DNA of 55,743 nucleotides from Candidatus Hermodarchaeota archaeon. GTDB lineage: Archaea > Asgardarchaeota > Hermodarchaeia > Hermodarchaeales > Hermodarchaeaceae. Location: NCBI GenBank assembly GCA_016840065.1, contig JAEOTB010000095.1, positions 1 to 55,743 on the forward strand, read 5' to 3'. The notes beneath the pieces are model-generated. The model did no database searches. It worked only from the letters and a program-made list of their open reading frames with translations, and was not told the origin of the DNA. A program made the translations under genes and the position numbers. Positions 27,912-33,303 of the stretch are shown one piece after another. How positions within the stretch are numbered: position 1 is the stretch's first letter; the number at the start of each line of letters is the position of its first letter.

Positions 27912-29633
27912 TTGACAAAAGACCAAATTCTAGAGCTTATCAGAAAATATAGTCTGGCAAACGCAATAAAATACGATGGTAAAGCCAATCCAAACGCGGT
28001 TATAGGCAAACTACTTGCTGAACGTCCTGATTTACGTCAGCAAGCACAAGAAATCGTCCCCCTAGTTAGAGAAACAGTAGCAACGATAAACACCTTATCC
28101 CTTGAGAAACAAATCGCACAACTCCAAGCTCTTGCTCCAGAATTGTTAGATGTGAGTCATGAACGCCGAGTAAAACAGTTACCACCTTTGCCCGGTGCAG
28201 AGATGGGAAAGGTTATGACTCGATTACCACCAGAACCTAGCGGGCACCCTCATTTTGGACATGCATATGCAGGCTTCATCAATTGGTTTTATGCACGCAA
28301 GTACGAAGGAAGTATCATCCTTCGTTTCGAAGACACCAACCCGCGTCTTGTAAAACCTGAATTCTATGATGCATTCAGAGAAGGATATCGCTGGATGGGG
28401 ATAGATTGGGACCGGGAAATCAAGGTTTCAGATGACGTGCCACTCTTCTATAAGCGGGCTCGAGAACTTCTTGAAAGGGAGGATGCTTACATCTGTTTTT
28501 GTCCAGTAGATACTATTAAGGAGAAACGGCGAGAAGGAGCCTCCTGTCCTCATCGCGATACTACAAAGGAAACAAACCTAGGGATATGGGATGACATTCT
28601 AGAGGGCAAATACAGCGAAGGAGAGTTGGTCTGCCGGCTGAAAATAGATATGAACCATGAGAACGCGGTAATGCGGGACCCCAATATCTTTCGTATTATT
28701 GATAGTCCACATCCCTTTCAAGGAGAGCGGTTTAGACTCTGGCCAACCTACGATTTTGCTGTGGCATTGGAAGATTATCTTAATGGTATCAGTCATATAC
28801 TTCGAAGTAACGAATTCGCTAGTCGCGGCGAACTGCAAGCCTACATCAGGGATCTCTTCGATTTATCTCAGCCAATAATTCAAGAATTTTCCCGTGTCTC
28901 TATAGAGGGGTCGCCAGTAAGTAAAAGGCGAATACGCCCCCTCGTTGAATCTGGAGTAATATCTGGATGGGGTGACATCAGACTTGCTACACTCTCAGCT
29001 CTACGGAATCGAGGAATCGTCCCCGAAACGATAAAGGAGATTACGCATGAGGTTGGTATGAGTGTAGCTCAGCCAATTATTGATTGGTCGCTGATTTTGG
29101 GAATTAATCGTCGGATAATAGATCCTTTGGCAAATCGATACTATTGTGTAGCTAATCCAGTGGCTGTTATAATCGAAGATCATCAGTCCGTTGATGCTGC
29201 ATTGCCACTTCACCCTGATTATAAAGAGCGGGGTACGCGAACCGTTCACGTTGACCAACAAGTTTTCATTGATGGTGCAGACGCCCAAAGACTGACGAAG
29301 GGGGATATTTTCCGTCTGAAACACCTATTCAATATTCGTGTAGAACGAAAAGGTCGGAAGGGATTAAGCTGTACTTACGCTGGTGAAGACCTTGATGCAG
29401 CTGCTCTAAAGATTCAATGGGTGACCAATGATTCGGTTCCAGTGTTGATGAATGTCCCTGAAGTATTATACATTGATGATAAATTAAATCCCAATAGCCT
29501 TAAGGTGGAGCAAGGGATTGGTGAAAGGCCTCTAGGCACGCTAGAACCAGGCACACTTGTACAATTAGAACGGAAAGGCTTTGGAATAATAAAAAGCGCA
29601 GAAACCAAAGTTGAAATCAATATGACAGGCTAA
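27912..29633 (+). CDS. gltX: Glutamyl-tRNA synthetase (archaeal type)
   Basis: RLPPEPSGHPHFGH (HIGH variant), RFEDTNP, WPTYDFA, VSKR. Confidence 0.96.
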   Translation: MTKDQILELIRKYSLANAIKYDGKANPNAVIGKLLAERPDLRQQAQEIVPLVRETVATINTLSLEKQIAQLQALAPELLDVSHERRVKQLPPLPGAEMGKVMTRLPPEPSGHPHFGHAYAGFINWFYARKYEGSIILRFEDTNPRLVKPEFYDAFREGYRWMGIDWDREIKVSDDVPLFYKRARELLEREDAYICFCPVDTIKEKRREGASCPHRDTTKETNLGIWDDILEGKYSEGELVCRLKIDMNHENAVMRDPNIFRIIDSPHPFQGERFRLWPTYDFAVALEDYLNGISHILRSNEFASRGELQAYIRDLFDLSQPIIQEFSRVSIEGSPVSKRRIRPLVESGVISGWGDIRLATLSALRNRGIVPETIKEITHEVGMSVAQPIIDWSLILGINRRIIDPLANRYYCVANPVAVIIEDHQSVDAALPLHPDYKERGTRTVHVDQQVFIDGADAQRLTKGDIFRLKHLFNIRVERKGRKGLSCTYAGEDLDAAALKIQWVTNDSVPVLMNVPEVLYIDDKLNPNSLKVEQGIGERPLGTLEPGTLVQLERKGFGIIKSAETKVEINMTG

Positions 29634-29691: not shown

Positions 29692-30474
29692 ATGTGCCTA
29701 GTCTTGTCGGAGGAAATACGCCGAGCCCTTGACAACCTGCGATTTGATCGCATGGTGAAAGCATTCTGTATCGTGTCTCCCGATAATCAAGTTCATCAAA
29801 GCACATTGGACACTAGCACTGAACAGATGGTCCAGAGAACTGTCACGTTGTACGAAGGTAAGATCAGCCAACTAACAGTCAACACAGAACAAGGTCTCGT
29901 TATTATATCAAAGATAGTTGGTGATTGGCTGCTGGCGGTATTATTTCCGACAAACCTTTCATTGGGAATAGCTGTTGTTAAGACAAAGGCAACACTCCTA
30001 GCTCTTCGAGATATTGATCTCGAAGTAGTAAAGACTATGGCCCCGATTGAAAAACCAGCCGAGACAACTAGTCCTGCAACAACTGTGTCAGCTAGTCCAG
30101 CGACAACCCAAGGCACCACTAGTCCCGCTTCAAGTGTATCATCAGTTTCACCTATAGCGTCCGGCTCTGCATCACCCACAGTAACATCTCCCGAAATCTC
30201 ACCCTCCGCTTCATCTGAACCCTCTATTACATTGTCCTCTATTCCTCAAGGTGGTGAAACGCTTTTAGCAGCCCTTGACAAAGGCTCGACGCTGGGAAAT
30301 TCACTCTTCGATAAATTTGGACCCTATGCTCGCGATGTTCTTTTTCTTATAGACGGTAAACGAGATGTCAAGACTATTGCATTCCTCCTTGGACTCCCTG
30401 AGTACGCGATTGTTGAGGTACTCGAGTTTGCAATAACTAAGAAGATTCTCCTCCCTGTAAGTGAAGCAGCATAG
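29692..30474 (+). CDS. Roadblock-like domain + S/T/P-rich linker + winged-helix
   Basis: N-terminal roadblock-like pattern (LTVNTEQGLVIISKI...LSLG); C-terminal LFLIDGKRDVKTIA. Confidence 0.65.
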   Translation: MCLVLSEEIRRALDNLRFDRMVKAFCIVSPDNQVHQSTLDTSTEQMVQRTVTLYEGKISQLTVNTEQGLVIISKIVGDWLLAVLFPTNLSLGIAVVKTKATLLALRDIDLEVVKTMAPIEKPAETTSPATTVSASPATTQGTTSPASSVSSVSPIASGSASPTVTSPEISPSASSEPSITLSSIPQGGETLLAALDKGSTLGNSLFDKFGPYARDVLFLIDGKRDVKTIAFLLGLPEYAIVEVLEFAITKKILLPVSEAA

Positions 30475-30541: not shown

Positions 30542-30560
30542 AAAAAATGATTAAAAAATG
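30542..30560 (-). terminator. Tandem oligo-T terminator of the ncRNA
   Basis: Minus strand CATTTTTTAATCATTTTTT directly after the terminal stem. Confidence 0.65.
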
Positions 30561-30562
30561 AA

Positions 30563-30710
30563 GCCGGGGGCAGCAAGAGGAAGGAGGGAGGAGGGCGAGG
30601 AAGCCCAAAGGGAGGACGACTCGGGCCAAGGTCCCTTGGGAGGGATTCTGCCTATTTGTGAGGGATTCGGGATCGGGTCAGTTTAAAATAGGACTGCTGC
30701 CCCACTCGGC
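30563..30710 (-). ncRNA. Unassigned ~150-nt structured RNA
   Basis: GC-rich island; the ends pair (GCCG-agu-GGGGCAGCAG / UUGCUGCCCC-CGGC); three internal hairpins; TATA upstream, oligo-T downstream. Confidence 0.75.
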
Positions 30711-30734
30711 ATTAAGGATTATTGTTACTAGTGG

Positions 30735-30750
30735 ATATAAATCTTTGGTT
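30735..30750 (-). promoter_or_regulatory. BRE/TATA promoter of the ncRNA
   Basis: Minus strand AACCAAAGA-TTTATAT, 24 nt before the terminal stem. Confidence 0.65.
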
Positions 30751-30820
30751 TTCGCAACTTCCATATACACTTATTGGGTTTTTCTTAATTGAATTCAGTA
30801 ATATTACATGTATTCTTATT

Positions 30821-31420
30821 TCATTCGGAAGTTTCTCGTTCAGTTCCGCATTCAATGCATACTAGAGGCTTAGATCGAAAGGTAGCACCACACCCCTTAC
30901 AGGCGAATAGAACACCTTCAGTGACTGCTACTGGCTCAGAGCGACGCCGATTCACTAGCCATAAAGGTATGCAGAGTAGAAGAGTCCCTAACACTATTAC
31001 ACCTAAAGTTGTTAATAACCGATAAAGAAGGAAAAACAGGAAGATGGTGAGAGGGAATGCGGCAATGTTAGCATATTTGAAAGTGAAAATTAGCCACACT
31101 CCTCCAATGAGGAGCGGGGATGTCAAAGTCATCTTGAACGAGCTGGCAGGTTTACGAAAGGCTACAATCCCAAGGATAACAGCGCACAACCAAAGTAGAA
31201 GTGATAGGATAGATGACAAATCGAGTAAGCGCTCAAAAGTGGCTAAGAGCCAAGCAACTTCGAAGAATTTTGTAGAATTACCCGAATCCACTAATCCGAA
31301 ATAGGTCGAGTATACGAGTGGGTTCAATGCCCCTTGGTCCAAGATATAAACGACAAGAGCTAACACAAAGGCTATGGCTACCCCCAAAGGAATAGGTGCT
31401 GAACTTCGGATATCAGACAT
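30821..31420 (-). CDS. Membrane protein with C-terminal zinc ribbon
   Basis: About 4 TM helices; CKGCG...CIECG. Confidence 0.75.
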   Translation of the reverse strand: MSDIRSSAPIPLGVAIAFVLALVVYILDQGALNPLVYSTYFGLVDSGNSTKFFEVAWLLATFERLLDLSSILSLLLWLCAVILGIVAFRKPASSFKMTLTSPLLIGGVWLIFTFKYANIAAFPLTIFLFFLLYRLLTTLGVIVLGTLLLCIPLWLVNRRRSEPVAVTEGVLFACKGCGATFRSKPLVCIECGTERETSE

Positions 31421-31452: not shown

Positions 31453-31956
31453 CTACCGAGTTTCTCTTTGAGACGTTAATGTCCCACCAACAGCACCGCC
31501 AACCCCAGCGATTATCCCAGCAAGAACTCCGTTGATCACCCAGCCTAACAGTTGGTCAAGAAGTATCTGGTTCAGCAGTGCCATGACATCAGGAAAATAG
31601 CCGTCTATGACCCAGACCACAATCCAGCAGACAAGTGCCATAGAGATTGCGGATACTAGACCCGCTGAAACGCCTTTGACAACATCTCGGGTGAACAGGC
31701 CACCAATCAATCCACTTAGTAACCAGATAATTGAGCCGAGAATGTAGGCGCTGGTAACATTCAGCAGTAATTGCGCTATCGCAAATCTGATTTGCTGAAA
31801 AATAGATACCATCATGAACGTGGTCGCCAAATCTGTTGGTATCCAACCGCTTCCCCAAAACGGAAGACTTAGCATAATACTACCGTAAATAACAGCAAAT
31901 GCAAGGATGATTGCAGAAAAGAATCCTACTATGGTCCCTGTTGCAGTGTTACCCAT
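31453..31956 (-). CDS. Gly-rich membrane protein
   Basis: About 4 TM helices, GLIGG and GAVGG motifs; GAGGT SD. Confidence 0.75.
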   Translation of the reverse strand: MGNTATGTIVGFFSAIILAFAVIYGSIMLSLPFWGSGWIPTDLATTFMMVSIFQQIRFAIAQLLLNVTSAYILGSIIWLLSGLIGGLFTRDVVKGVSAGLVSAISMALVCWIVVWVIDGYFPDVMALLNQILLDQLLGWVINGVLAGIIAGVGGAVGGTLTSQRETR

Positions 31957-32079: not shown

Positions 32080-33303
32080 TCAGACCATCTTTAGCTTTCG
32101 CAGTTCTCTCATCAAAGATATGAGTTTTCGATCCCGAGTTGCCATTGCCTTAGCAAAAATCTTTACCTTTCGGGCTGAAGCCATTTTCACGACGGAGTCG
32201 CCCGTAACGATTCTTGCTAGCCTGTCAAGGGTTTCGTCTTCAGTTTCGATGAGAAGGTCTCTAAGCTTCAGAGACTGAGCGAATTCATCGCCATAACGTT
32301 TACGCCATTTCGTTTCGTATTCCTGGAGTCTAGCAGCTGAGACATCGCCTTTTGACACGCACTTGGATGCGACTTGCCCAGCAATACTACCACAAACCAT
32401 AGCATAACCCATCCCGCCGCCAGTAATAGGATGTACATGGCCTGCGGCGTCGCCTACGAGGAGTGCGCCGTCTACTACGTTTTGTTCGTTTGGTCCGCAT
32501 ACGGGTAGTGCTCCTACTCGACATTCTACAATCTTTGCTTTGGCTAGTTGGCGTTTAGCGATTTCGTGGTGTTTTATGAAGTGGTCTAGATACTGTTGTG
32601 CTGTGTGTTCTCCGAAGCCTCCACCAATACCGATACCTACATTGGCGCGTCCCTCGCCTTTGGGGAAGATCCATATGTAGCCTCGGGGGCATAGGTCGCT
32701 TCCTAGTAGAAACTCCATTAAATCAGGGAATTCAAGGTTGCAGTTGACCATTTCGTATCCAAAGCAGGAGTCGATATCTGCGGGTTTGAAAGAACGTCGT
32801 AATCCTGTAAGGCGAGCTATCTCGCTGTTTACTCCATCAGCACCGATAACGACATTTGCTTTGATGGTCTTGCGCTCTCCATTATGTCGCACGACAACTC
32901 CACTGACTGTGCCTTTAGAGCGCTTCAAACCAATGACTTTGGCGCCAAGAAGTACATCTGAGCCTGCCTCGGCGGCACGAGCTAGTAATTCTTTGTCAAA
33001 CACACGTCGATCAATGATATAGCCACTGGGCTCTTTCTCAGCAAAGTCAACTGAAATAAGAGCCGGACTATATACTCGAAATCCACGGATGGGAACACGA
33101 ATTGATTCTTCAGGTATCTCGATTTCAGCAATACCTGGCCCAGTTTTTCCAATAGCTTCGCCGCACTGGACTGGAATCCCAACGTGTGTTTTCCTGTCAA
33201 CAATGGTAACTTCTGCGCCCTCTCGCCGTGCAGACAGCGCAGTGGCAGACCCTGCTGGGCCTCCGCCGACAATTATTATATGATTATCGCTCGACAAGTT
33301 CAA
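32080..33303 (-). CDS. Geranylgeranyl reductase family flavoprotein (DGGGPL reductase-like)
   Basis: VGGGPAG, PVQCGE, PRGYIWIFPKG, VGDAAG, PITGGG. Confidence 0.92.
   Translation of the reverse strand: MNLSSDNHIIIVGGGPAGSATALSARREGAEVTIVDRKTHVGIPVQCGEAIGKTGPGIAEIEIPEESIRVPIRGFRVYSPALISVDFAEKEPSGYIIDRRVFDKELLARAAEAGSDVLLGAKVIGLKRSKGTVSGVVVRHNGERKTIKANVVIGADGVNSEIARLTGLRRSFKPADIDSCFGYEMVNCNLEFPDLMEFLLGSDLCPRGYIWIFPKGEGRANVGIGIGGGFGEHTAQQYLDHFIKHHEIAKRQLAKAKIVECRVGALPVCGPNEQNVVDGALLVGDAAGHVHPITGGGMGYAMVCGSIAGQVASKCVSKGDVSAARLQEYETKWRKRYGDEFAQSLKLRDLLIETEDETLDRLARIVTGDSVVKMASARKVKIFAKAMATRDRKLISLMRELRKLKMV

What the first reader, a model, noticed from the sequence alone, without database searches (positions are those of the whole stretch)
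30542..30750. Novel independently transcribed ~150-nt ncRNA displaying C/U-rich, anti-SD-like motifs
Seen: BRE/TATA, a ~14-bp terminal stem with a 3-nt bulge, and hairpins CCUAUUU/AAAUAGG, CCAAG/CUUGG and GCCCGAG/UUUGGGC. G-U pairs favour the minus strand, and a double oligo-U terminator follows. Loops and linkers repeat GAAUCCCUC (twice), UCCUCCC and CCCUCCUCCCUCCUUCCUC. It does not look like tRNA, 5S, SRP, RNase P or a C/D guide. An ATG at 30712 gives a 9-codon leaderless ORF (MPSGAAVLF). Inference: a multi-site protein sponge or an sRNA pairing with GGAGG ribosome-binding sites.
Basis: partly seen in the sequence, partly recalled or inferred. Interest (0 to 1): 0.75.

Follow-up and report, generated by a model that had tools for sequence, protein, structure and literature searches.

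The report
Conserved Asgard small RNA with anti-Shine-Dalgarno tract
This is a real, uncatalogued gene for a roughly 150-base non-coding RNA of Hermodarchaeia (Asgard archaea) that holds open a C/U-rich strand copying the ribosome's mRNA-docking sequence. It is the local version of an older small RNA kept at the same chromosomal spot in at least five further Asgard lineages; its function is still untested.

Summary
On the minus strand (about 30712 to 30553) lie a BRE/TATA promoter, a 4+10 bp closing stem with a 3-nt bulge, a mostly unpaired interior with 8 CCUC motifs, and two T6 runs. It matches no Rfam family and carries no conserved ORF.

A covariance model finds exactly one copy in 19 of 19 Hermodarchaeia genomes, always between a zinc-ribbon membrane-protein gene (downstream of geranylgeranyl reductase) and convergent p260/GluRS genes. 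This scan reported the same family before on other Hermodarchaeia DNA (e1-5477888, e1-5553653, e1-5477898). I reached the same core reading independently.

New here: the RNA is not class-restricted. Atabeyarchaeia, Baldrarchaeia, Jordarchaeia and families f8 and f20 carry an 80-110 nt RNA at the same syntenic locus; Freyarchaeia has a weaker-scoring copy beside the reductase gene. These share the core CGCCCUCCUCCC (up to 18 identical nt). Their closing stem is a covarying kink-turn, which Hermodarchaeia have lost. This links the Hermod RNA to the scan's "kink-turn-clasped C-rich RNA" (e1-5425307).

Function is inferred only. Most likely it masks GGAGG-type ribosome-binding sites. A decoy for proteins that bind the 16S 3' tail or C-rich RNA is nearly as likely. 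It is not SRP RNA, RNase P RNA, a Ro-type Y RNA or a C/D guide. RNA-seq could not be consulted.

The parts
30553..30712 (-). The small RNA itself (about 155-160 nt). The 5' end is inferred at 30712-30710 and the 3' end lies within the first T run.
   Evidence: CM R1 match at 30553-30711, 113.5 bits, E 4e-24. The alignment of 18-24 homologues ends at these borders. No conserved ORF. The ends are inferred from promoter and terminator geometry, not measured.
30734..30746 (-). Archaeal core promoter: BRE-like AAAGA plus TATA box TTTATATC.
   Evidence: Sequence. TATA at a fixed distance is conserved in all aligned homologues of both genera and upstream of the related RNAs of other classes.
30749..30757 (-). 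Conserved upstream element TTGCGAAAA (TTGAGAAAA in the sister genus). Possibly a second BRE-like or regulator site.
   Evidence: Conserved column block in the upstream alignment. Its role is inferred.
30707..30710 (-). Outer closing helix P1a, 5' strand (GCCG).
   Evidence: Pairs with 30563-30566. 96.7% of cells are paired over 18 sequences.
30563..30566 (-). Outer closing helix P1a, 3' strand (CGGC).
   Evidence: present in every MFE fold.
30704..30706 (-). 3-nt bulge AGU between P1a and P1b. It occupies the place where relatives in other classes carry the GA of a kink-turn.
   Evidence: Comparison with kink-turn relatives.
30694..30703 (-). Inner closing helix P1b, 5' strand (GGGGCAGCAG).
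   Evidence: Pairs with 30567-30576. Compensatory changes occur at two pairs: C-G to U-A in 5 sequences and G-C to A-U in 1.
30567..30576 (-). Inner closing helix P1b, 3' strand (UUGCUGCCCC).
30682..30689 (-). Near-invariant U-run motif AUUUUAAA (AAUUUUGAA or AAUUUUAAA in the sister genus). Resembles an Sm-type site.
   Evidence: Conserved in 17 of 18 sequences. A purine-flanked U4-6 run also occurs in the relatives of most other classes. Binding by an Sm-like protein is inferred.
30643..30655 (-). Near-invariant block AUAGGCAGAAUCC. Its GGCAG repeats the 5' strand of P1b and could pair with the 3' CUGCC instead.
   Evidence: The alternative pairing is broken in 2 homologues and never covaries, so P1b is preferred.
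30632..30645 (-). Small hairpin H1: UCCCU-CCCA-AGGGA (CCUCC-CAA-GGAGG in the sister genus).
   Evidence: U-A to C-G covariation between the genera. Lost in 2 homologues.
30612..30622 (-). Invariant unpaired block GAGUCGUCCUC.
   Evidence: Invariant columns.
30603..30626 (-). Genus-specific hairpin GCCCGAG...UUUGGGC, created by a roughly 15-nt insert.
   Evidence: Present in the 4 genomes of this genus only.
30577..30602 (-). Main C/U tract UUCCUCGCCCUCCUCCCUCCUUCCUC, unpaired. It contains the pan-family core CGCCCUCCUCCC, which resembles the 16S 3' end ACCUCCU.
   Evidence: Unpaired in all folds. The 18-mer UCCUCGCCCUCCUCCCUC is identical in Atabeyarchaeum. The 16S 3' end of a same-genus genome reads GGAUCACCUCCU.
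30542..30558 (-). Two T6 runs (30558-30553 and 30547-30542), an archaeal oligo-T terminator.
   Evidence: Sequence. A T6-T8 run directly after the stem occurs in nearly all homologues.
30821..31420 (-). Upstream neighbour p199: Asgard-specific membrane protein with a C-terminal zinc ribbon. It lies directly upstream of the RNA in five other lineages too.
32080..33303 (-). Geranylgeranyl reductase gene, the conserved anchor of the locus.
   Evidence: Pfam GGR_cat 4.6e-23. Synteny.
29692..30474 (+). Convergent neighbour p260 (no Pfam family). Its stop lies 79 nt from the RNA's first T run. Read-through of this gene would be antisense to the RNA.
27912..29633 (+). Glutamyl-tRNA synthetase, the convergent anchor of the locus. 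It is directly convergent with the RNA in Atabeyarchaeia and Baldrarchaeia.
   Evidence: Pfam tRNA-synt_1c 2.7e-72. Synteny.

Best explanation
The stretch is a stand-alone gene for a stable non-coding RNA of about 155 nt, transcribed from the minus strand by the archaeal polymerase from its own BRE/TATA promoter and ended at an oligo-T run.

A two-part closing stem joins its ends and holds open a largely unpaired interior of about 120 nt. That interior shows 8 CCUC motifs, including the core CGCCCUCCUCCC, which copies the 3' end of 16S rRNA (the anti-Shine-Dalgarno sequence).

It is the Hermodarchaeial orthologue of an Asgard small RNA kept at one locus: geranylgeranyl reductase, zinc-ribbon membrane protein, RNA, convergent GluRS. 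In Atabey-, Baldr- and Jordarchaeia and in f8 and f20 the closing stem is a kink-turn, the standard L7Ae binding site. Hermodarchaeia have replaced it with a plain bulge or internal loop.

Most likely mode of action (inferred, not shown): the exposed tract pairs in trans with GGAGG-type Shine-Dalgarno or other purine-rich sequences of mRNAs. It would so compete with the 30S subunit and lower translation initiation, as C-rich bacterial sRNAs and Methanosarcina sRNA41/sRNA154 are reported to do.

Shown: gene-like anatomy, conservation, structure, distribution, orthology by synteny. Inferred: expression, exact ends, protein partners, targets.
For: Gene anatomy: TATA sits 31 nt before the stem and a T run directly after it, conserved in two genera.

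Distribution: one copy in 19 of 19 class genomes.

Non-coding and uncatalogued: no conserved ORF and no Rfam family.

Structure:
- The closing stem is in every MFE fold.
- Covariation score 0.131 against 0.093 in shuffles, reached by 0 of 500.
- CCUC is enriched 4-9-fold over shuffles in all homologues.
- The tract is unpaired in all folds.

SD context: this genome uses GGAGGTGA Shine-Dalgarno sites at -14 to -8. The 16S of a same-genus genome ends GGAUCACCUCCU.

Orthologues elsewhere:
- The identical 18-mer tract occurs in Atabeyarchaeum.
- The pattern tract+GGCRATGA gives 21 hits in 400 Asgard genomes against 0 for the reversed control.
- In the kink-turn helices 99% of cells pair and 5 of 9 pairs carry compensatory changes.
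- CM R2 hits f7 5/5, f8 1/1, f12 3/3, f14 3/4, f18 6/6 and f20 2/3.
- The GGR / p199-like / GluRS neighbours are the same.

Precedent for RBS masking by archaeal sRNAs: PMC5867862.
Against:
- Predicted pairing is no stronger at translation starts than inside genes. At -20 kcal/mol there are 205 start regions against 245 internal regions.
- The genome holds no extended complementary site. Hits of 11 nt or more are about as many as chance predicts, and the longest is 16 nt.
- The RNA complements only the GGAGG half of the local GGAGGTGA consensus; the Hermod RNAs lack UCACC.
- Seven to nine motif copies, and near-invariance of about 90 nt, are more typical of protein-titrating RNAs or RNP scaffolds than of a seed-pairing sRNA.
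- Covariation inside Hermodarchaeia is modest, since most stem positions never vary.
Confidence: 0.45

Rival explanations
1. Protein decoy or sponge. The repeated, exposed CCUC/CCUCC units titrate a protein that recognises the 16S 3' tail or C-rich single strands. Candidates are the two-KH-domain aDim2p/Pno1-type biogenesis factor, Nob1, or another KH protein. The U-run would recruit an Sm-like protein. The RNA would then tune ribosome maturation or the availability of an RNA-binding regulator rather than pair with mRNAs.
For: - It carries 4-9 motif copies per RNA, 4-9-fold over chance, as multi-site sponges do.
- Long unpaired blocks are near-invariant, more than a pairing seed needs.
- The core resembles the 16S 3' end.
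- No mRNA target signal was found.
- A solved complex of archaeal Dim2p with the 3' end fragment of 16S rRNA exists (PDB 3AEV, listed in PMC12127562).
- This genome encodes a 197-aa two-KH protein.
- Relatives carry a protein-binding kink-turn.
Against: - No binding was tested.
- No KH or other candidate gene is linked to the locus; the neighbours are a membrane zinc-ribbon protein, GGR and GluRS.
- Which residues of the 16S fragment the KH domains read is recalled from memory, not checked here.
Confidence: 0.3
2. RNA core of a dedicated ribonucleoprotein with another task, for example an assembly chaperone or a particle working with the adjacent membrane zinc-ribbon protein. On this view the C/U tract is a protein- or RNA-docking surface unrelated to Shine-Dalgarno sites.
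For: - It behaves like a housekeeping gene: one copy in every genome of seven families.
- Its position directly behind the p199-like gene is fixed across classes.
- Relatives combine a kink-turn with a U-run, which are two classical protein sites.
Against: - It has no complementarity above chance to 16S pre-rRNA or 23S rRNA.
- It has no C/D or H/ACA boxes.
- p199-like genes exist in Thor-type genomes without the RNA behind them.
Confidence: 0.15
3. A mainly cis-acting element. The RNA gene sits between convergent genes, and its transcript, or transcription through it, acts as antisense or terminator-insulator for read-through from p260/GluRS. It could also be processed from the p199 mRNA.
For: - The convergent arrangement with GluRS or p260 is conserved, with gaps of 50-110 nt.
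- There is no T run of 5 or more on the plus strand between the p260 stop and the RNA gene, so read-through would be perfectly antisense.
Against: - Cis-antisense action does not explain the invariance of the C/U tract across classes whose neighbouring coding sequences differ.
- The RNA has its own TATA box in every lineage.
- In f7 and f20 no GluRS gene was found in the roughly 1.5 kb of flank fetched on either side of the RNA, so the convergent partner may be missing there.
Confidence: 0.07
4. Not an RNA gene. The conserved block would be a G-rich plus-strand 3' UTR or DNA element (for example quadruplex-forming) of p260, and the promoter and terminator look-alikes would be chance.
For: The plus strand folds as well as the minus strand, z -2.53 for both. 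The plus strand has several G3+ runs.
Against: - G-U pairs in the stems would become A-C mismatches on the plus strand.
- TATA spacing and the T run are conserved only for the minus strand.
- The kink-turn of the relatives reads only on this strand.
- Relatives keep the RNA without p260.
Confidence: 0.03

Closest known systems
Kink-turn-clasped C-rich small RNA of other Asgard classes. Uncatalogued; noted by this scan as e1-5425307. Found here in Atabeyarchaeia, Baldrarchaeia, Jordarchaeia, Freyarchaeia, f8 and f20.
   Same: - Same locus: GGR, zinc-ribbon membrane protein, RNA, convergent GluRS.
- Own TATA box.
- Two-part closing stem (GCCAGC/GCUGGC there, GGCAGC/GCUGCC here).
- U-run.
- Same core CGCCCUCCUCCC, with up to 18 identical nt.
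- One syntenic copy per genome.

   Different: - The Hermod RNA has no tandem G-A pairs and no RAU-GA bulge strand, so no kink-turn.
- It is about 50 nt longer.
- It has extra invariant blocks (AUAGGCAGAAUCC, GAGUCGUCCUC).
- It is not found by model R2, nor the others by R1.
C-rich, Shine-Dalgarno-targeting bacterial sRNAs (RsaE/RoxS, LhrC, csRNAs) and Methanosarcina mazei sRNA41/sRNA154 (PMC5867862).
   Same: Trans-encoded small RNA with its own promoter and terminator. Unpaired C-rich motifs are complementary to GGAGG-type ribosome-binding sites. The proposed action is masking of the site.
   Different: - There is no sequence or Rfam relationship.
- It has 8 motifs in one long open loop closed by a terminal stem, instead of 2-3 motifs in hairpin loops.
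- No target is known.
- Relatives carry an L7Ae-type kink-turn, which none of those RNAs has.
Y RNAs (Ro60-associated; also bacterial Yrl RNAs).
   Same: About 100-150 nt. The 5' and 3' ends form a bulged terminal stem, with a pyrimidine-rich internal region just 5' of the 3' strand and an oligo-U tail.
   Different: - No TROVE/Ro60 gene in any of the 19 class genomes.
- No Rfam Y_RNA match.
- The conserved bulged-helix Ro site is absent.
Multi-site protein-titrating RNAs (CsrB/RsmZ, CrcZ).
   Same: Many copies of one short motif are displayed in accessible regions of a small stable RNA.
   Different: The motif is CCUC, the complement of the GGA-type SD mimic of CsrB. No CsrA, Crc or Hfq counterpart has been identified, and binding is untested.
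Internal C'/D' kink-turn of archaeal box C/D sRNAs (this applies to the relatives).
   Same: In the relatives the 5' strand reads NNGA and the 3' strand GC-RAU-GA, flanked by helices. This is the K-turn geometry bound by L7Ae.
   Different: There is no second box pair and no guide placed 5 nt upstream of a D box. The 70-90 nt loop is C/U-rich. The Hermod RNA lacks the motif altogether.

Membership tests
   113.5 bits, E 4e-24, model positions 1-147 of 147. The window sequence was in the seed alignment. The 4 class genomes left out of the seed scored 123-152 bits; a fifth, G018, gave only a contig-end fragment of 34.5 bits.
Hermodarchaeial CCUC small RNA | Single copy at the p199 / p260-GluRS locus | tested here: met
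   One hit per genome in 19 of 19. Identical neighbours in all 17 loci compared.
Hermodarchaeial CCUC small RNA | Closing stem around an open loop with several CCUC motifs | tested here: met
Kink-turn-clasped C-rich Asgard small RNA (model R2) | Kink-turn: tandem G-A/A-G pairs, a 3-nt bulge, and flanking C and NC helices | tested here: not met
   The Hermod loop between P1a and P1b is AGU (this genus) or UGU/UU and the like (sister genus), without GA on either strand. R2 finds nothing in G000 at E<=0.01.
Kink-turn-clasped C-rich Asgard small RNA (model R2) | Core tract CGCCCUCCUCCC in the loop | tested here: met
   Present at 30596-30585. The 18-mer is identical to that of Atabeyarchaeum.
Kink-turn-clasped C-rich Asgard small RNA (model R2) | Position downstream of GGR and the zinc-ribbon membrane-protein gene, and/or convergent with GluRS | tested here: met
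   It holds in f7, f8, f12, f14 and f20, and for the second copy in f18.
Y RNA | Ro60 (TROVE) partner encoded in the genome | tested here: not met
   PF05731 absent in 19 of 19 genomes, while the controls ring.
Y RNA | Match to the Rfam Y_RNA models | tested here: not met
   No match at E<=10.
Box C/D sRNA | C box RUGAUGA and D box CUGA near the ends, with a guide upstream of D | tested here: not met
   No C box. The CUGA at 30681-30678 is genus-specific. No Rfam snoRNA hit.
Archaeal SRP RNA / RNase P RNA | Match to RF01857 / RF00373 | tested here: not met
   SRP RNA is on contig C10 of this genome. RNase P RNA is found elsewhere in 17 of 18 relatives over the cut-off. The window has no hit.
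RsaE/RoxS-type C-rich sRNAs | Sequence and structure membership (Rfam RsaE and relatives) | tested here: not met
   No Rfam match. The likeness is one of proposed mechanism only.
RsaE/RoxS-type C-rich sRNAs | Demonstrated pairing of the C-rich motif with Shine-Dalgarno regions of target mRNAs | not testable with these tools
   In-silico scans showed no enrichment at translation starts. This needs experiments.

The most novel reading that the evidence does not exclude
The RNA is the core of an ancient Asgard-specific ribonucleoprotein. In most lineages it would combine an L7Ae/Snu13-type kink-turn, an Sm-type U-run and an exposed mimic of the 16S 3' end. Such a particle would act globally on ribosome-mRNA docking or on maturation of the small-subunit 3' end. 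It would be a regulatory RNP built from the same protein-RNA modules as eukaryotic snRNPs and snoRNPs, possibly working with the adjacent membrane zinc-ribbon protein.
Probability: 0.1. Interest if true: 0.85.

Novelty: new variant of a known kind. Interest (0 to 1): 0.66.

Why it matters
Almost nothing is known about regulatory RNAs in Asgard archaea, the closest prokaryotic relatives of eukaryotes.

- This is a small RNA that behaves like a core gene. It occurs as one copy in every sampled genome of seven GTDB families and has kept the same locus since before those classes split.
- It presents a copy of the ribosome's anti-Shine-Dalgarno sequence.
- If it masks ribosome-binding sites or titrates 16S-tail-binding factors, it would be a lineage-wide post-transcriptional control of translation in archaea.
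- Linking the kink-turn form with the kink-turn-less Hermod form gives a natural experiment on what the L7Ae site contributes.
- It also gives Rfam-style models (R1, R2) for annotating Asgard genomes.

Tried and rejected
Known families
- Rfam, whole window at gathering score and 500 nt at E<=10: only chance-level eukaryotic lncRNA/miRNA hits. The same held for a sister-genus copy and for the relatives.
- SRP RNA and RNase P RNA are found elsewhere.
- Ro-type Y RNA: no TROVE gene.

False leads
- The two weak R1 hits outside the class (L051, L052) lie antisense inside long ORFs and are false.
- No C/U-rich RNA lies near p260 or p199 homologues in four Thor-type loci.

Target searches
- Extended antisense targets in the genome: exact complements of 11 nt or more are about as many as chance predicts, the longest is 16 nt, and the 12-mer GAGGGAGGAGGG occurs only in the gene itself.
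- RNAduplex against start regions versus internal regions showed no enrichment. The method is uninformative for such a C-rich query.
- Complementarity to 16S pre-rRNA and 23S rRNA is not above shuffles, so an rRNA guide role is not supported.

Other checks
- Coding potential: no shared frame.
- The alternative helix between the internal GGCAG and the 3' CUGCC is broken in 2 homologues without compensation.
- The neighbour proteins p260, p199 and p167 match no Pfam family. p199 has only close Asgard relatives.
- KH_1 proteins in the genome are ordinary in number.

- MAFFT could not align the 5' strands of the f12 RNAs until the sequences were trimmed to the helix ends.
- A first script timed out.
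Full report
**What is there**

Read on the minus strand, the flagged stretch has the anatomy of an archaeal RNA gene.
- A conserved element TTGCGAAAA lies at 30757-30749.
- AAAGA plus the TATA box TTTATATC lies at 30746-30734.
- A purine start region lies 28-31 nt downstream (AUG CCG..., 30712-30710).
- Two T6 runs lie at 30558-30553 and 30547-30542.

- GCCG pairs with CGGC (4 bp).
- A 3-nt bulge AGU follows.
- GGGGCAGCAG then pairs with CUUGCUGCCCC (10 bp, ending in a G-U pair).

ViennaRNA places this stem in the minimum-free-energy fold. The z-score against shuffles is only -2.5 and is the same on the plus strand. Energy alone therefore proves little.

**Conservation and structure within the class**

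BLAST of the 201-nt stretch found one copy in the window's own genome. It also found full-length relatives in the three other genomes of the genus (87-92% identity) and partial ones in the sister genus.

The alignment with flanks shows the following.
- The TATA box stays at a fixed distance.
- Both strands of the closing stem are conserved.
- Several unpaired blocks are conserved: AUUUUAAA, AUAGGCAGAAUCC, GAGUCGUCCUC and CCCUCCUCCCUC.
- The T run is conserved.
- The 5' third varies.

A covariance model built on this alignment (R1) finds exactly one copy in 19 of 19 genomes of the order and class, which are 72-91% complete. Record titles identify the class as Hermodarchaeia/Hermodarchaeota, Asgard archaea.

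All 18 full-length copies fold with the same closing stem and leave the 3'-proximal C/U tract unpaired.

Pair counts give 89.8% of cells paired. Compensatory changes occur at two pairs of the inner closing helix and two pairs of a small hairpin. The covariation score is above all 500 shuffles and above every slid control. Most stem positions never vary, so within the class the support is real but modest.

G-U pairs in the stems fit the minus strand only.

CCUC occurs 4-9 times per RNA against about 1-2 in shuffles.

- CCUAUUU/AAAUAGG occurs only in this genus.
- GCCCGAG/UUUGGGC rests on a 15-nt insert found only in this genus.
- CCAAG/CUUGG is peculiar to this genome.

**What it is not**
- There is no Rfam family at gathering score or at E<=10.
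- The genome's SRP RNA is on another contig.
- RNase P RNA is found elsewhere in 17 of 18 relatives.
- The overall look (bulged terminal stem, pyrimidine-rich region before the 3' strand, oligo-U tail) recalls Y RNA. However, no genome of the class encodes a TROVE/Ro60 protein.
- There are no C/D boxes.
- Complementarity to 16S pre-rRNA and to 23S rRNA does not exceed shuffles.

**Context**

In all Hermodarchaeia the gene order is the same.
- On the RNA's strand: geranylgeranyl reductase, a membrane protein (p167), a membrane protein with a C-terminal zinc ribbon (p199), then the RNA.
- Convergent with these: p260 (no Pfam family) and glutamyl-tRNA synthetase.

**The family is wider than the class**

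R1 found nothing credible in 132 other Asgard genomes. Its two weak hits lie antisense inside ORFs.

However, the BLAST had listed a 20-nt identity in a complete genome of another family. That site is intergenic. It has a TATA box, a closing stem, a U-run and the same tract UUCCUCGCCCUCCUCCCUC in a loop.

Three searches extended this.
- Searching 400 Asgard genomes for the 18-mer with up to 2 mismatches gave mostly chance or coding hits. It also gave gene-like intergenic loci in several families.
- In these loci the closing stem is a textbook kink-turn: a 4-6 bp helix, GA, then GCC... on the 5' side...GGC, a 3-nt bulge RAU, GA, and the helix on the 3' side.
- The pattern CCCTCCTCC-N(3-40)-GGCRATGA hits 21 sites in 18 of 400 genomes, against none for the reversed control.

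On an alignment of 12 such RNAs, 99% of helix cells pair and 5 of 9 pairs show compensatory changes. The covariation score is 0.399 against 0.149 in shuffles, with slid controls at or below 0.098.

Model R2 gives these counts in a sample of 151 genomes.

| Family | Genomes with a hit |
|---|---|
| f7 | 5/5 |
| f8 | 1/1 |
| f12 | 3/3 |
| f14 | 3/4 |
| f18 | 6/6 |
| f20 | 2/3 |
| f2 (Odin-sized genomes) | 0/4 |
| f4 | 0/14 |
| f6 (Thor-type) | 0/26 |
| f9 | 0/25 |

These are samples, so "not found in those searched" is the right wording.

Record titles name the families as follows.
- f12 is Atabeyarchaeia (Ca. Atabeyarchaeum deiterrae, CP147780).
- f14 is Baldrarchaeota.
- f7 is Jordarchaeia.
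- f18 is Freyarchaeia (CP147778).

The decisive point is synteny.
- In f7, f8, f12, f14 and f20 the kink-turn RNA lies directly behind a p199-like zinc-ribbon gene that follows geranylgeranyl reductase, and/or converges on GluRS.
- In f18 three lower-scoring copies (32-40 bits) lie within about 1 kb of the reductase gene. No p199-like or GluRS match was found in their flanks.
- This is the arrangement seen in Hermodarchaeia.

Shared features are the core CGCCCUCCUCCC, a similar inner helix (GCCAGC/GCUGGC against GGCAGC/GCUGCC), a purine-flanked U-run and their own TATA boxes. Together these make the Hermod RNA the orthologue of the kink-turn RNAs.

Hermodarchaeia have replaced the kink-turn with a plain bulge or internal loop (no GA on either strand). 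They have also lengthened the loop.

**Earlier notes of this scan**

After my own analysis I looked up this scan's notes.
- Three earlier follow-ups on other Hermodarchaeia genomes describe the same RNA with the same reading (e1-5477888, e1-5553653, e1-5477898).
- One describes the kink-turn-clasped RNA (e1-5425307).
- As far as the notes show, the two were treated as separate, class-limited families.
- The notes also list C/U-rich small RNAs in Thor, Hel and Heimdall lineages (e1-5447935, e1-5447936, e1-5470019, e1-5444084). I did not test these.

I found no paper on any of these RNAs.

**How it may work**

The genome uses GGAGGTGA Shine-Dalgarno sites centred at -14 to -8. The 16S rRNA of a same-genus genome ends GGAUCACCUCCU. 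The pan-family core ...CCCUCCU... therefore copies the anti-SD end of 16S.

Two mechanisms follow naturally.

*(a) RBS masking.* The tract pairs with GGAGG-type sites and masks them. This is reported for C-rich bacterial sRNAs and for Methanosarcina sRNA41/sRNA154 (PMC5867862).

*(b) Protein decoy.* The tract decoys proteins that read the 16S 3' tail or C-rich single strands. An archaeal Dim2p-16S 3' fragment complex is solved (PDB 3AEV, cited in PMC12127562). This genome has a two-KH protein of the right size.

The evidence bears on both.
- For (a): the complementarity, and the precedent.
- Against (a): predicted duplexes are no stronger at start regions than inside genes. There is no extended target. 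The Hermod RNAs do not complement the GGUGA half of the local consensus.
- For (b), or for a dedicated RNP: there are 7-9 motif copies, about 90 nt of unpaired sequence is near-invariant, and relatives carry a kink-turn plus a U-run.

The U-run (RAU4-6R) looks like an Sm-type site. Binding by an Sm-like protein is inference.

I rate the gene itself at about 0.9. I rate RBS masking at about 0.4-0.45, a protein decoy at about 0.3, another RNP role at about 0.15, and cis or artefact explanations below 0.1.

**Limits**
- No expression data could be consulted, so the ends are inferred.
- All genomes are metagenome-assembled.
- Relatedness inflates the shuffle statistics.
- E-values from the short calibration are rough.
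- The homology between the Hermod form and the kink-turn form rests on synteny plus a 12-18 nt shared tract and similar architecture, not on a joint alignment.

Noticed in passing
window 29692-30474 (+): p260, the convergent neighbour, has no Pfam family. Its N-terminal (1-120) and C-terminal (186-260) domains are 70-87% identical between the two Hermod genera, more than the adjacent GluRS (about 53%). They are joined by a variable Ser/Thr/Pro-rich linker. Homologues at about 30% identity occur in all 26 Thor-type (f6) genomes sampled, often as two paralogues 3 kb apart.
   Followed up: partly
window 30821-31420 (-) and 31453-31956 (-): p199 has several transmembrane helices plus a C-terminal CxxC...CxxC zinc ribbon and belongs to an Asgard-only family. 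A p199-like gene sits directly upstream of the RNA in at least six Asgard families. Whether it works with the RNA is unknown. p167 is a further small membrane protein without a family.
   Followed up: partly
L135 (G024:C3 about 371.2 kb), L136 (G086:C6 about 14.2 kb), L120, L121: Jordarchaeia (f7) carry a second, different C/U-rich RNA candidate. In the two genomes where both RNAs lie on one contig it sits about 6 kb from the kink-turn RNA. It has a TATA box, a 5' tail containing the full anti-SD UCACCUCC, and a long GC-rich hairpin (GGGGGCGGCCC/GGGCCGCCCCC) with UCCUCUCCCUCCUCCCCCC in its apical region.
   Followed up: partly
L223, L226-L228 (Freyarchaeia, f18): Freyarchaeia genomes hold two R2-type RNAs. 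The better-scoring copy is not next to GGR or GluRS, and the weaker one is. This suggests a duplication in that lineage.
   Followed up: no
L061 (G012:C71:619-4212): The 16S rRNA match of a sister-genus Hermod genome spans 3.6 kb for a 1.48-kb model. This implies large insertions (introns) in the rRNA gene.
   Followed up: no
G000 contigs C50 and C78: ARAGORN found only 15 tRNAs in the 2.6-Mb assembly, among them a 'tRNA-Stop' on C50 and an unassigned tRNA on C78. Intron-rich tRNA genes are probably being missed.
   Followed up: no
G012:C33:30165-30246: A weak R2 hit (28 bits, E 0.002) in a Hermod genome away from the syntenic locus. It may be an unrelated kink-turn RNA.
   Followed up: no
L259 (JAPDJY010000053.1): A record titled 'Thermoproteota archaeon S9B3_HD70' carries the Jordarchaeia-type kink-turn RNA. 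The public label looks outdated.
   Followed up: no
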